Virus record (IMG/VR): IMGVR_UViG_3300029186_000001 | Length of the DNA stretch: 64,000 bases | Source of the DNA: a virus | Taxonomy: Duplodnaviria > Heunggongvirae > Uroviricota > Caudoviricetes | Reading direction: 5' to 3' (one strand) | In this document: one piece after another, positions 51,486 to 53,743 of the stretch | Layout: each line of letters starts with the position of its first letter | Position numbering within the stretch: the first letter of the stretch is position 1 | The notes under the pieces: generated by a model | Told to the model about the DNA's origin: nothing | The model's input: the letters and a program-made list of their open reading frames with translations, nothing else | Databases searched by the model: none | Translations under genes and position numbers: made by a program

Positions 51486-51553
51486 TTGCAACCATGTAAA
51501 TTATTTCTCTGGTAACTAAAATGTATGAGTTTAATTGATATGGGTCAAAGATT

Positions 51554-51582
51554 TTGACCATTGCATGGTGAAACTTTATGCT
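51554..51582 (+). promoter_or_regulatory. Sigma70-like promoter for the AT-rich cassette
   Basis: TTGACC -35, 17-bp spacer, TATGCT -10, ~50 nt upstream of 51632; overlapped by palindrome GGTCAAA-GAT-TTTGACC at 51543-51559. Confidence 0.4.
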
Positions 51583-51631
51583 ACAAAATGTTATTTTAAG
51601 GCGTTTTATCTGTGGCAGGAGATAGTTAATC

Positions 51632-51982
51632 ATGTCATCTGAACATGTTCGTAAAGGTGTAACAAATGCGAAATTCAATGAAGAGCAATCTAATATTCTC
51701 TTTATTGAAATAGGAATTCTGTCAATACTGATAGGTTTAATGTCTAAATCATGGTGGGCCTTTGGCGGTTCTTTTCTTGGACTGATTTTTAGTTTAAGAA
51801 TAAAATTTCTAGCAATACCATTGATGATTGTATTTAGCTTAGTATGGGGAGCTATTGGCTATAGTATTGGTACTTTGTTTGAATCAACAGCAGCAAGTAT
51901 TGTTTTGGGGGTAATTGCTTTCCTGAGTGGTTTGGGTACTCATTTTGCTGCCGTGCAATGGGCAAATGATATTGCAGAATAA
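51632..51982 (+). CDS. Small integral membrane protein (116 aa, 3-4 predicted TM helices)
   Basis: AGGAG RBS; hydrophobic segments ILFIEIGILSILIGL, LAIPLMIVFSLVWGAIGY, IVLGVIAFLSGLG; AT-rich codon usage. Confidence 0.6.
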   Translation: MSSEHVRKGVTNAKFNEEQSNILFIEIGILSILIGLMSKSWWAFGGSFLGLIFSLRIKFLAIPLMIVFSLVWGAIGYSIGTLFESTAASIVLGVIAFLSGLGTHFAAVQWANDIAE

Positions 51983-52004
51983 TTACAGATAAGAAGCGAA
52001 AAGA

Positions 52005-52481
52005 ATGAATATGAGATGGTTTTTATTATTTGTATCGTTAGTTTCAGCAGGAACATTTGCAAAAATTGATCCTCTACAATGGAATGTAATTGAAGAGAGA
52101 GGGGGGAGAGAATATACAATCCATAATCATAATGGTGATAAGATAAGTTTTTTATGTGATATGGGATTCATGTATGGTTCACCAGATAGTGCAGGTAGTT
52201 TAGGCTTGTTGCTAAGTTCGTCGAATAATAAAAAAGAGTATAATGCTGACAAGAATAAAATAGTATTAACTATAGATGGTGATCAATATCCTTTTAGCAA
52301 TCTTGGATCAATGGTTGGAGATTCTTGGTGGTATGCCTTTTGGCAAGATGCAGCAGATTCAAATGCTAATATGATTGATGCTTATGTTGATAATGAAAAA
52401 ATTGCTACATTCCCTCTTTCTGGGCTAAGTAAGTTGTATCAACAAGCCAAAATGGATGGATGTATTAAACGAGGCAAATGA
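52005..52481 (+). CDS. Secreted/periplasmic protein with Sec signal peptide (158 aa)
   Basis: N-terminus MNMRWFLLFVSLVSAGTFA then a polar mature domain. Confidence 0.6.
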   Translation: MNMRWFLLFVSLVSAGTFAKIDPLQWNVIEERGGREYTIHNHNGDKISFLCDMGFMYGSPDSAGSLGLLLSSSNNKKEYNADKNKIVLTIDGDQYPFSNLGSMVGDSWWYAFWQDAADSNANMIDAYVDNEKIATFPLSGLSKLYQQAKMDGCIKRGK

Positions 52482-52555
52482 TCTTTCTGTGTTAAAGATT
52501 AACGCAATCAATAAAACATTGGTTGCGTAATATTCTATTATAGAAATGGAATAAT

Positions 52556-53590
52556 ATGACAAAAATTACTAATTCTAATGAGTTGAAGTTGCTGTATAAA
52601 CAGTCAGTGCTCATTCCATCATACAAAGATCACGTAGCGATCTTGCAAAAACAATTAGGAATAGAAAAACATTCTTTTCAAAATATGCCAAGATTGAATA
52701 GACAAGCTGTAATTAGTAACTCTCTTCGAAAACAATTGGCTAGTATACCGAACTTGGCTGGAATAGGCAGCAAGTATCGTGAACATATCGCGATTTTACA
52801 GAAACAGACTCAGGCTCTTTTCCCTCATGATGCAAATAGATATATTCAAATGCTAAGGAAACAGGCCGAAATAGCTATGCCATTACGAAAACAGCTTGAG
52901 GTGCTTAATAAGCAAGCTGGTTTAAATAACATGCAAGCGATACTTAAAGAATTACAACAAAGTGCAAATTATAAAATAGATGTAAGCCAAGACATAAAGA
53001 AAGTACTAGATCACTATGCTAGAACAAGAAATGCTTCATTACATCAAATAATAGAGCAGGGGATTTCATCTATTGCGCAGGCTTATGCTGAAGGTGCTAC
53101 TGAAACATCACACACCAAAAGTAATGTTCAAAATAAAGGATTAAATAAACCTAGCTCAAAGTTTGTTGATTCATTTAAAGAGCTTCCTTATCCACTGCAA
53201 TGGTTACTAATGGTTATATTTTCTCAAGTTGTGTTTGGTGCTTTTATTGATTACGGAAAAGAGAAAACCTTGCTGGGAATACACAAGGCAGAATCATATT
53301 TTATATCTCTGTTTGAGGATAAACCAATATCAAAACAACAATTAATTAAAGAAAACAAAGAAATTAGTTGGGAAGATCTCAATGGTTTTCGTTTTATAAC
53401 TGGTGAGAACGTAAGATTACACGTCAGTCCTTCTATAAATAGTGAGGTGATTGAATGCATTGGCAAAAATACTATAGTGGCTGTTTTAGATAAAAAAGAT
53501 CGCCAATGGCTTTTCGTGCAGGTTAAATCAGGGGACGAGTTTATTACTGGATGGATTACACGAACATACACAAAGCCTCTTAAGGCTTGA
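52556..53590 (+). CDS. Membrane-anchored protein with N-terminal internal repeats and C-terminal SH3b-like domain (344 aa)
   Basis: Repeats of ...HIAILQKQ.../...LRKQL...; TM helix LPYPLQWLLMVIFSQVVFGAFIDY; C-terminal FRFITGENVRLHVSP...GWITRTY resembles bacterial SH3 domains. Confidence 0.6.
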   Translation: MTKITNSNELKLLYKQSVLIPSYKDHVAILQKQLGIEKHSFQNMPRLNRQAVISNSLRKQLASIPNLAGIGSKYREHIAILQKQTQALFPHDANRYIQMLRKQAEIAMPLRKQLEVLNKQAGLNNMQAILKELQQSANYKIDVSQDIKKVLDHYARTRNASLHQIIEQGISSIAQAYAEGATETSHTKSNVQNKGLNKPSSKFVDSFKELPYPLQWLLMVIFSQVVFGAFIDYGKEKTLLGIHKAESYFISLFEDKPISKQQLIKENKEISWEDLNGFRFITGENVRLHVSPSINSEVIECIGKNTIVAVLDKKDRQWLFVQVKSGDEFITGWITRTYTKPLKA

Positions 53591-53690
53591 ATTTTATCAC
53601 CGTATCTTGGGGCTGGGTGTTGATGACGATGTGCTACTTGAAGTACTTGGGTTTTTTAACGCAGCATCTGAAATGTGTAGACTGACCGGT

Positions 53691-53712
53691 AACAAATGAC
53701 AACTCGTAGAAT
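53691..53712 (+). promoter_or_regulatory. Candidate late promoter (AACAAATGAC-N6-TAGAAT)
   Basis: Third copy of the motif, ~30 nt upstream of the tail operon; the -10 lies inside an 11-bp inverted repeat (53703-53713 / 53727-53737). Confidence 0.5.
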
Positions 53713-53743
53713 CGGGTAACACACCAGATTCTACGAGGTTTCA

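What the first reader, a model, noticed from the sequence alone, without database searches (positions are those of the whole stretch)
51486..53743. AT-rich three-gene envelope cassette transcribed divergently from the c4-icd-ant immunity operon
Three plus-strand genes (51632-51982 small polytopic membrane protein, 52005-52481 signal-peptide protein, 52556-53590 single-TM protein with N-terminal repeats and a C-terminal SH3b-like domain) sit between the Op51-type operator and the tail operon. The block is visibly far more AT-rich than the surrounding backbone, has its own sigma70-like promoter overlapped by a perfect palindrome (GGTCAAA-GAT-TTTGACC), and points away from the immunity operon. 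In P1, as I recall, this position holds the sim superimmunity genes, and the sizes here (116, 158, 344 aa) do not match my recollection of Sim. An all-envelope gene set at an immunity-linked, compositionally foreign locus is what a superinfection-exclusion or envelope-acting defence module would look like. I recognise none of the three proteins.
Basis: partly seen in the sequence, partly recalled or inferred. Interest (0 to 1): 0.72.

Follow-up and report, generated by a model that had tools for sequence, protein, structure and literature searches.

The report
Swappable envelope genes in P1's sim slot
In this P1-like phage-plasmid, the slot where phage P1 keeps its sim superinfection-exclusion genes holds three unrelated, AT-rich genes for cell-envelope proteins of unknown function; they look like independently acquired cargo in an already-described variable region, not a new three-part defence system.

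Summary
Three + strand genes (51632-51982, 52005-52481, 52556-53590) form the most AT-rich 2.2 kb of the window (34.4% GC against 48.0 +/- 1.7%). They lie between the C1 operator of the c4-icd-ant operon (51469-51485) and the late promoter LPsit (53694-53712). P1 has simABC in this slot and P7 has upf50.5/upf50.0. None of the three proteins is related to Sim or to the P7 proteins. Protein 1 is a small polytopic inner-membrane protein. Protein 2 is a secreted YfjT/YkfB-family (PF27224) protein, like those of the K-12 cryptic prophages. Protein 3 has a variable cytoplasmic repeat region, one membrane helix and a conserved periplasmic SH3b domain. The slot is a published low-GC "highly variable region" of P1-like phage-plasmids. 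The three genes do not form a fixed unit: they recombine with other partners in the slot, and relatives of proteins 1 and 3 stand alone elsewhere. No known defence family matches. The promoter and palindrome are no better than chance. The most likely role is modification of the lysogen's envelope, with superinfection exclusion the leading untested guess. This is an ordinary to mildly interesting finding.

The parts
51469..51485 (-). C1-operator-like site (Oc4/Op51 type). It marks the left edge of the replaceable slot.
   Evidence: GTTGCTCTAATTATTTT, 3 mismatches to ATTGCTCTAATAAATTT. The window has 12 such sites against 0.32 expected. It aligns with the P1 and P7 operator core TTAGAGCA, after which the sequences diverge.
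51543..51559 (.). Perfect 7-3-7 palindrome GGTCAAAGATTTTGACC. It is probably not a regulatory site.
   Evidence: It occurs once in the window, and 25 of 100 shuffles give at least one match at the 2 mismatches allowed. The cassette holds 1 such palindrome against 2.2 +/- 2.0 in shuffles. It is degraded in the 94.6%-identical class B variant and absent upstream of gene 1 relatives elsewhere.
51554..51582 (+). Candidate sigma-70 promoter for gene 1 (TTGACC-17-TATGCT).
   Evidence: 9/12 match, with the -35 hexamer conserved in class B. Promoter-like sites are not enriched over shuffles (7 against 10.4). No C1 operator overlaps it. Its function is inferred.
51632..51982 (+). Gene 1: 116-aa polytopic inner-membrane protein with an invariant cytoplasmic N-terminal motif VRKGxTNAKFNEE.
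   Evidence: ORF; 3-4 hydrophobic segments. 13 homologue clusters, 58-72% identical among full-length relatives, some outside P1-like elements. It belongs to phrog_15014, function unknown. No Pfam, NCBIfam or PADLOC match. An AGGAG Shine-Dalgarno lies 8 nt upstream.
52005..52481 (+). Gene 2: 158-aa secreted (periplasmic) protein of the YfjT/YkfB family (PF27224).
   Evidence: hhalign against K-12 YfjT: probability 99.7%, E 5e-26. Precomputed Pfam PF27224, named YfjT. RefSeq product name. Signal-type N-terminus; Cys51 invariant and Cys153 nearly invariant. AlphaFold2 model pLDDT 85, beta-rich with one long helix. No solved relative. Uncharacterised phage proteins match the fold.
52502..52528 (+). 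Terminator-like hairpin between genes 2 and 3.
   Evidence: 11-pair stem, 5-nt loop, weak T tail. Terminator-like sites are enriched in the region (7 against 1.5 expected). It coincides with the recombination joint between the gene 1+2 module and the gene 3 module (class B match ends at query 990, about window 52475).
52556..53590 (+). Gene 3: 344-aa bitopic inner-membrane protein. Residues 1-212 are a variable helical repeat region (cytoplasmic by the positive-inside rule), 213-232 a membrane helix, and about 276-344 a conserved SH3b domain (periplasmic).
   Evidence: SH3_3 scores 26.0 bits for this protein (cutoff 27), but all 32 family members match, best E 2.3e-9. Hydrophobic segment and flanking charges. 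N-terminal identity falls to 11-28% where the SH3 region stays 61-83%. The AlphaFold2 model is poor (pLDDT 45).
53694..53712 (+). Late promoter LPsit (-22 box AAATGACAA, -10 TAGAAT). It marks the right edge of the slot and the start of the pmgC-tub-pmgB-sit late operon.
   Evidence: It aligns base for base with the annotated P1 and P7 LPsit. All five slot variants converge here.

Best explanation
The block is the current occupant of the sim slot, a known hypervariable, low-GC region of P1-like phage-plasmids. The slot is bounded by the C1 operator of c4 and the late promoter LPsit. Its contents are exchanged by recombination in the conserved flanks and at internal joints.

The occupant is a mosaic of three independently mobile accessory genes, all for envelope proteins:
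- a small polytopic inner-membrane protein;
- a secreted YfjT/YkfB-family protein with a probable disulfide;
- an inner-membrane protein whose conserved SH3b domain faces the periplasm, probably holding it to peptidoglycan, and whose variable repeat region faces the cytoplasm.

The block lies outside the late operon. No C1 operator overlaps its candidate promoter, so it is probably transcribed in the lysogen.

The most likely role is lysogenic conversion of the envelope. The favoured version is superinfection exclusion at the step where incoming phage DNA crosses the periplasm and inner membrane, as reported for Sim. The YfjT-type protein is the recurring element in this allele family. The genes probably act singly or in pairs, not as an obligate three-part machine.

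Shown: position, boundaries, composition, non-homology to Sim, family assignments and modular reassortment. Predicted from sequence: membrane topology and periplasmic location. Inferred: expression in the lysogen, peptidoglycan binding and any effect on phage entry.

The confidence of 0.42 is for the whole statement: about 0.9 for the structural part and 0.35-0.4 for exclusion as the role.
For: Slot and boundaries.

The region is published as variable and low in GC (PMC9603915). The sim genes are non-essential in P1 (PMC10695390).

Census of 5,426 complete E. coli genomes: 509 carry the pmgC-tub backbone, 251 carry sim-type sequence, 164 the P7 type and 113 some part of this block. Only 37 have all three genes.

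Modularity. Solitary relatives of protein 1. Solitary relatives of protein 3.

YfjT-family genes recur in the slot at 28%, 38% and 93% identity, once as two paralogues side by side. One also sits in the slot of a deposited P1-like phage.

Envelope location.

Among the slot occupants examined, SimA-like, SimB, SimC, Upf50.5, Upf50.0 and the YfjT-type proteins carry signal-type N-termini (P7 signal peptides annotated). That fits a periplasm-directed role for the slot.

Sim is reported to block DNA injection (PMC8546580).

Full-length SimA-like occupants share about 100 aa with the Sit tape-measure/transglycosylase (tblastn E 3e-7). This hints that slot products engage the injection machinery.

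There is no C1 operator inside the block.
Against: - There is no experimental evidence for any function.
- No PADLOC, NCBIfam or informative Pfam match exists for proteins 1 and 2. No paper on YfjT/YkfB function was found.
- The fold of protein 2 matches nothing characterised.
- The promoter is a 9/12 match, no better than chance.
- DNA at 34% GC in E. coli is a typical H-NS target (established knowledge), so the genes may be largely silent.
- In protein 3 the periplasmic domain is conserved and the cytoplasmic part is variable. That is the reverse of what an arms race with incoming virion proteins would predict.
- YfjT-type proteins also occur in lytic jumbo phages, where excluding a second infection of a lysogen is not the obvious role.
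Confidence: 0.42

Rival explanations
1. Envelope cargo unrelated to phages. The three proteins are lysogenic-conversion factors that benefit the host in other ways, such as envelope stress tolerance, adhesion or colonisation, serum or antimicrobial resistance, or modulation of cell-wall growth or division. They sit in the slot only because it tolerates insertions.
For: - The genes are independent of one another and occur in non-phage settings: protein 1 between chromosomal metabolic genes and next to an integrase, protein 3 next to umuDC on a Yersinia plasmid.
- YfjT/YkfB proteins sit in K-12 cryptic prophages beside a small membrane protein and an inner-membrane lipoprotein.
- One fold relative is annotated 'putative adhesin'.
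- No defence model matches.
- Protein 3 has the layout of bitopic peptidoglycan-binding division proteins such as FtsN or DamX (own knowledge), and the neighbouring operon encodes the division inhibitor Icd.
Against: - The one characterised occupant of this slot, Sim, acts on phage entry.
- SH3 relatives are confined to contigs of about 70-100 kb. The nearer ones lie in P1-like elements and the distant ones in elements of unidentified type.
- Three alternative allele families cover nearly all P1-like elements, which suggests the slot is kept for one kind of task.
Confidence: 0.28
2. One reading: the three genes form one coherent, co-adapted envelope-acting defence system that needs all three parts.
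For: - The genes are adjacent, on the same strand, share a similar low GC and are all envelope-directed.
- The identical trio occurs in 37 complete E. coli genomes and at least 27 PLSDB plasmids.
- A YfjT-type gene plus an SH3 gene also co-occur in a second slot variant.
Against: - Only 37 of the 113 genomes with any part of the block have all three genes. Genes 1+2 often pair with DUF4760 instead of gene 3, and gene 3 pairs with other upstream genes.
- Relatives of proteins 1 and 3 are solitary elsewhere.
- A terminator-like hairpin separates genes 2 and 3 at the recombination joint.
- No match to known defence systems.
Confidence: 0.1
3. A lytic-cycle accessory. The SH3b protein and its neighbours help the phage's own lysis, tail assembly or DNA delivery, for example by positioning something at the peptidoglycan.
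For: - SH3b domains are common cell-wall-targeting modules of endolysins. There is a weak PHROG amidase hit (E 0.0075) over the SH3 region.
- The block abuts the tail and tape-measure operon, which encodes a lytic transglycosylase.
Against: - There is no catalytic domain.
- The block lies upstream of, and outside, the late promoter LPsit.
- The slot is dispensable for P1 lytic growth.
- Most P1-like elements lack these genes.
- No relative of proteins 1 or 3 exists in 50,697 deposited phage genomes.
Confidence: 0.07
4. Silent passenger DNA. The block is AT-rich foreign DNA kept off by H-NS. It persists by hitch-hiking in a permissive site and has no current function.
For: - 34% GC and GC3 of 22-27%.
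- The slot is non-essential.
- P1's own SimA is a 52-aa remnant of a 163-215-aa protein, so decay does occur in the slot.
Against: - All three ORFs are intact and 98-100% identical across many independent plasmids.
- Family alignments show strongly conserved motifs, consistent with purifying selection.
Confidence: 0.1

Closest known systems
P1 simABC (superimmunity / superinfection exclusion)
   Same: Same slot between the C1 operator of c4 and LPsit, same orientation, non-essential, low GC, and products with signal-type N-termini. Sim is reported to stop superinfecting DNA from entering the cytoplasm.
   Different: No sequence relationship to SimA, SimB or SimC (for protein 2). Different number and size of genes. 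Two of the three products are integral membrane proteins. No phenotype is known.
P7 upf50.5 / upf50.0 (lipoprotein plus DUF5384 protein)
   Same: An alternative occupant of the same slot, also exported proteins of unknown function. It is common, occurring in 164 of 5,426 E. coli genomes.
   Different: Unrelated in sequence.
E. coli K-12 YfjT (CP4-57) and YkfB (CP4-6), Pfam PF27224
   Same: Protein 2 is a member: hhalign probability 99.7% to YfjT, same length, signal-type N-terminus and C-terminal Cys. In CP4-57, yfjT also follows genes for a small membrane protein and an inner-membrane lipoprotein.
   Different: Only 22% identical to YfjT. The neighbours are not homologous (protein 1 against YpjK: no match). 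The family has no known function.
Highly variable region 4 (simC-simB-simA) of P1-like phage-plasmids (Microbiol Spectr 2022, PMC9603915)
   Same: This is that region. The paper lists it among eight highly variable regions and notes its low G+C.
   Different: In the passages retrieved, the paper scores the region by presence or absence of the P1 genes. They do not describe the replacement genes, their families or their reassortment.
Other envelope-level exclusion proteins (T4 Imm/Sp, HK97 gp15, P22 SieA, TP-J34 Ltp) - recalled from own knowledge, not tested
   Same: Small prophage- or phage-encoded inner-membrane or periplasmic proteins that block DNA entry after adsorption.
   Different: No homology was tested or implied. 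None is known to me to use an SH3b or YfjT-type domain.
Bitopic peptidoglycan-binding proteins such as FtsN/DamX/DedD - own knowledge, architecture only
   Same: Cytoplasmic N-terminus, one membrane helix and a C-terminal periplasmic wall-binding domain, as predicted for protein 3.
   Different: Those use SPOR domains, not SH3b. No sequence similarity was found.

Membership tests
P1 Sim superimmunity proteins | Sequence homology to SimC (or SimA/SimB) | tested here: not met
   blastp all-against-all gives no hit better than E 0.75. For protein 2, hhalign of profile A4 against SimC gives probability 0.5% and against SimB 1.3%.
P1 Sim superimmunity proteins | Location between Oc4 (Op51) and LPsit/pmgC, transcribed away from c4-icd-ant | tested here: met
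P1 Sim superimmunity proteins | Blocks infection after adsorption but not transfection (exclusion phenotype) | not testable with these tools
   Needs infection assays.
YfjT/YkfB family (Pfam PF27224) | Profile-level match over the full length to K-12 YfjT | tested here: met
   hhalign probability 99.7%, E 5e-26, 144 aligned columns. Precomputed PF27224 'YfjT' on the identical protein. RefSeq product name. NCBIfam release 20 gave no match.
YfjT/YkfB family (Pfam PF27224) | About 150 aa, N-terminal signal sequence, conserved Cys pair and Trp | tested here: met
   Cys51 and Trp109 are invariant; Cys153 is at least 90% conserved. pLDDT is below 50 for residues 1-5 and 8-17. No dedicated signal-peptide predictor was available.
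Bacterial SH3 domain (Pfam SH3_3, PF08239) | Match to the SH3_3 profile | tested here: met
   This protein scores 26.0 bits, E 1.1e-5, just under the 27-bit cutoff. All 32 family members match, best E 2.3e-9, and 15 also match SH3_4. The model shows beta strands at 279-335 but at low confidence.
Bacterial SH3 domain (Pfam SH3_3, PF08239) | Binds peptidoglycan | not testable with these tools
   Needs sacculus pull-down.
Known anti-phage defence systems (PADLOC-DB 2.0) | Match to any defence-protein model | tested here: not met
   No family at E <= 1 for the three proteins. None at E <= 0.1 for nine other slot occupants.
Ribbon-helix-helix DNA-binding proteins (considered for protein 3, residues 139-177) | Profile match to RHH and conservation of the beta strand | tested here: not met
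   RHH_1 E 0.099, in only 2 of 32 members. No RHH protein in the profile search of solved structures. hhalign against CopG gives probability 0.4%. The strand residues are not conserved.
P7 Upf50.5 / Upf50.0 (DUF5384) | Sequence homology | tested here: not met
Highly variable region of P1-like phage-plasmids (PMC9603915, region 4) | Lies at the simABC position, has low G+C, and differs between otherwise conserved elements | tested here: met

The most novel reading that the evidence does not exclude
The sim slot is a dedicated exchange site for non-homologous superinfection-exclusion modules. On this reading the secreted YfjT/YkfB-type protein, alone or with a membrane partner such as protein 1 or the SH3b protein, is a new kind of exclusion effector. 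It would block the periplasmic step of phage DNA delivery, for example by acting on the Sit transglycosylase/tape-measure or on the wall it must cross. That would give a first function to a family that includes two unannotated E. coli K-12 prophage proteins.
Probability: 0.22. Interest if true: 0.6.

Novelty: new member of a known kind. Interest (0 to 1): 0.34.

Why it matters
P1-like phage-plasmids occur in about 9% of complete E. coli genomes (509 of 5,426) and spread resistance genes. What they carry in their few variable slots shapes how lysogens interact with other phages.

This slot holds the only P1 locus linked to exclusion. It comes in three main unrelated allele families, and only one of them (sim) has any functional data.

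If the YfjT-type protein or the SH3b protein excludes phages, that would add a new envelope-level mechanism. It would also annotate a family present in the K-12 cryptic prophages CP4-57 and CP4-6.

If they do not, the block is ordinary accessory cargo in a region already known to vary.

Tried and rejected
1. Sim orthology: rejected.
2. Relationship to P7 Upf50.5/Upf50.0, or of those to K-12 YfjS/YfjT: rejected. Only the signal peptides align.
3. Known defence systems: no PADLOC match for any slot protein.
4. Palindrome as an operator: not enriched, not conserved in the nearest variant, and absent upstream of gene 1 relatives elsewhere.
5. Promoter significance: not above shuffles.
6. A ribbon-helix-helix domain in protein 3, which would have made it a membrane-tethered regulator: rejected at profile level.
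7. Structure of protein 3: the AlphaFold2 model is too poor to search (pLDDT 45). Its SH3 region has no solved relative by sequence.
9. Protein 1 against K-12 YpjK: no similarity.
10. The 163-aa neighbour of a protein 1 relative (L006) as a hidden YfjT: no.
11. Similarity of the three proteins to anything else in the window, including virion proteins: none.
12. Literature on YfjT/YkfB, DUF4760 or SH3-type exclusion proteins: nothing functional. Two recent phage-plasmid surveys do not discuss the slot. The P1 genome paper could not be retrieved under the ID I recalled.
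Full report
**1. The observation**

The three + strand ORFs are at the stated coordinates: 51632-51982 (116 aa), 52005-52481 (158 aa) and 52556-53590 (344 aa). 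Each has diverged homologues with conserved columns, so they are real genes.

The block 51487-53691 is 34.4% GC. Every other 2.2-kb window of the 64 kb lies between 43.5% and about 52% (mean 48.0%, sd 1.7). Third-position GC is 22-27%, against 41-53% in the adjacent pmgC, tub, pmgB and sit genes. It is the most AT-rich stretch in the window by more than seven standard deviations.

- C4 antisense RNA on the minus strand at 51189-51276 (Rfam, 76.7 bits).
- icd and ant further left.
- A C1-operator-type site at 51469-51485.
- The pmgC-tub-pmgB-sit genes to the right.

**2. The regulatory details are weaker than described**

The palindrome GGTCAAAGATTTTGACC is at 51543-51559. The promoter-like TTGACC-17-TATGCT at 51554-51582 uses its right arm as the -35 hexamer.

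- Promoter-like sites are not enriched in the region (7 found, 10.4 expected).
- One perfect 7-nt-arm palindrome in 2.2 kb is what shuffled sequence gives (2.2 +/- 2.0).
- The palindrome is broken in the 94.6%-identical variant of another plasmid (GGATCAAAGACTTTGACC). It is absent upstream of relatives of gene 1 outside P1-like elements.

I treat the promoter as plausible and the palindrome as probably meaningless. No C1 operator lies within the block. Any transcription is therefore unlikely to be directly repressed by C1; this is an inference.

Terminator-like hairpins are enriched (7 against 1.5 expected). One sits between genes 2 and 3 at 52502-52528.

**3. The locus**

The flanks are 97-98% identical to P1 and P7. 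The central 2.1 kb has no DNA match in 50,697 deposited phage genomes.

P1 carries simA, simB and simC in this position. P7 carries upf50.5 and upf50.0.

On the left the sequences diverge just past the operator core. On the right all variants converge at P1's annotated late promoter LPsit. In the window its -22 box is at 53694-53702 and its -10 hexamer at 53707-53712. So the block lies outside the late tail operon.

The simABC position is already published as one of eight highly variable regions of P1-like phage-plasmids, with low G+C noted (PMC9603915). The sim genes are non-essential for P1 lytic growth (PMC10695390).

Census of 5,426 complete E. coli genomes:

| Sequence searched | Genomes with a match |
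|---|---|
| pmgC-tub backbone | 509 |
| P1 sim-type | 251 (127 near full length) |
| P7 type | 164 |
| Any part of this block | 113 |
| All three genes of this block | 37 |

At least 27 PLSDB plasmids carry the block at 95-100% identity.

**4. The three proteins**

*Protein 1*
- 3-4 hydrophobic segments.
- Its N-terminal motif VRKGxTNAKFNEE is almost invariant in relatives 58-72% identical.
- It belongs to a PHROG family of unknown function and matches nothing else.

*Protein 2*
- A signal-type N-terminus with no lipobox. Cys51 is invariant and Cys153 nearly so.
- It belongs to the YfjT/YkfB family: hhalign against K-12 YfjT gives probability 99.7%, E 5e-26, and Pfam PF27224 is named YfjT.
- An exhaustive search of 1.84 billion representatives found only 21 relatives.
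- The AlphaFold2 model is confident (pLDDT 85) and shows a beta-rich fold with one long helix.
- It matches uncharacterised phage proteins of 143-151 aa.

*Protein 3*
- One membrane helix at 213-232. The net positive charge is on the N-terminal side, which predicts an N-in, C-out topology.
- SH3_3 scores 26.0 bits against a 27-bit cutoff in this copy, but it matches all 32 family members (best E 2.3e-9).
- Across the family the SH3 region stays 61-100% identical. The N-terminal 205 residues fall to 11-28%, and the number of short repeats changes.
- Its structure model was too poor to use.
- A ribbon-helix-helix look-alike at residues 139-177 failed profile tests.

**5. Not a fixed cassette**

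DNA matches in other plasmids fall into discrete classes, shown with representative records:

| Record | Slot contents |
|---|---|
| Window | gene 1, gene 2, gene 3 |
| pCREC-629_2 | gene 1, gene 2, antisense DUF4760 gene |
| pCFSAN004176P_03 | full-length SimA-like gene, 28%-identical YfjT paralogue, 67%-identical SH3 gene |
| p99_1145-3 | SimA-like gene, 38%-identical YfjT paralogue, 93% copy of gene 2, antisense DUF4760 gene |

Outside the slot:
- Relatives of protein 1 stand alone next to an AAA ATPase in Vibrio, between metabolic genes, and next to an integrase.
- Relatives of protein 3 at about 40% identity stand alone at a different locus in Salmonella and Citrobacter elements of about 90 kb, and next to umuDC on a Yersinia plasmid.
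- YfjT-type genes also occur in K-12 CP4-57 after a small membrane protein gene and a lipoprotein gene, and in several jumbo lytic phages.
- No deposited phage genome encodes a relative of protein 1 or protein 3.

The YfjT-type gene is the recurring element in this third of P1-like elements. The other genes come and go around it.

**6. How it most likely works**

The firm part:
- This is mosaic accessory cargo for envelope proteins.
- It sits in a known replaceable slot.
- It is not homologous to Sim (protein 2).
- It is not a known defence system.

The function is inferred. I favour lysogenic conversion of the envelope, with superinfection exclusion the most likely version, for these reasons:
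- The only characterised occupant of the slot, Sim, is reported to keep superinfecting DNA out of the cytoplasm (PMC8546580).
- Most of the alternative occupants examined carry export signals.
- The three allele families together cover nearly all P1-like elements.
- Full-length SimA-like occupants share about 100 aa with the Sit tape-measure/transglycosylase. That suggests slot products may engage the injection machinery.

Against this:
- There is no functional evidence, and the promoter is weak.
- DNA this AT-rich is a typical H-NS target (established knowledge).
- The variable part of protein 3 faces the cytoplasm, not the incoming phage.
- YfjT relatives occur in lytic phages.

I put the combined statement at about 0.42. 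That is roughly 0.9 for the structural part and 0.35-0.4 for exclusion as the role.

Rivals:
- Envelope cargo unrelated to phages: 0.28.
- One obligate three-part system: 0.10.
- A lytic-cycle accessory: 0.07.
- Silent passenger DNA: 0.10.

**7. Novelty and verdict**

The variable, low-GC nature of the locus is published. The three proteins are already in public databases as hypothetical, YfjT/YkfB-family and SH3-domain proteins.

What this analysis adds:
- The exact slot boundaries.
- The assignment of protein 2 to the YfjT family.
- The split conservation in the SH3 protein.
- The modular reassortment.
- The census of allele families.

I rate it a new member of a known kind, with interest about 0.34. 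The most novel reading still open is that YfjT-type proteins are a new class of exclusion effector. I give that about 0.22 probability; it would be moderately interesting if true.

Noticed in passing
window 51321-51399 (- strand): An Rfam isrK (Hfq-binding sRNA) match, 58.3 bits against a gathering score of 50, E 6e-11. It lies between the C1 operator and C4 RNA in the leader of the c4-icd-ant operon. The region from about 51108 to 51486 does not match P1 or P7. Positions 50986-51400 match phage D6 at 88%. RefSeq annotates a 39-aa 'ash family protein' ORF there.
   Followed up: no
L009:2065-2556 and L010:2220-2867; window 58859-59173: Other slot variants encode a 163-215-aa secreted protein. 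Its first 42 residues are 90% identical to P1 SimA, so P1's 52-aa SimA looks like a remnant. About 100 aa of it resemble the C-terminal part of the Sit tape-measure/transglycosylase, including the motif GMRxxxVQGTLEERARG (tblastn E 3e-7).
   Followed up: partly
window 56012-56581: A 297-bp tandem duplication (1.9 copies, 81% matches) inside the sit gene. It makes this Sit 1,239 aa, against 1,140-1,142 aa in related elements. Sit is the putative tape measure, so tail length might differ.
   Followed up: partly
L016:4501-5850, L017:4501-5946, L019:1-1219, L018:4501-5694: Distant SH3 relatives (about 40% identity) sit alone. In Salmonella and Citrobacter elements of about 90 kb they lie a few kb from a 2,262-aa Eco57I/SNF2-type (DarB-like) gene. 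In Yersinia the copy is next to umuDC. The element type was not identified.
   Followed up: partly
L008:4537-5430 (- strand), L010:4157-5050 (- strand): In many P1-like plasmids a 297-aa DUF4760 membrane protein gene, on the opposite strand, takes the place of the SH3 gene. Only one paper in the library mentions DUF4760, and only once.
   Followed up: partly
L002:2348-2869 (P7 upf50.5): The P7 slot lipoprotein has a weak, sub-threshold match to TraT, the F-plasmid surface-exclusion and serum-resistance lipoprotein (23.1 bits against a 31-bit cutoff, E 7e-5). RefSeq labels it 'DNA methyltransferase', which looks like a mis-annotation.
   Followed up: no
P0072 (839 aa), P0077 and P0089 (487 aa): Some distant relatives of protein 2 carry many tandem copies of its N-terminal approximately 50-aa unit (13 matched stretches in P0072). 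Others are annotated as META-domain or HslJ-like proteins.
   Followed up: no
window 53697-53743: A 21-nt-arm inverted repeat, 86% complementary. It spans the LPsit -10 hexamer and the leader up to the pmgC start codon, and is conserved in P1 and P7.
   Followed up: no
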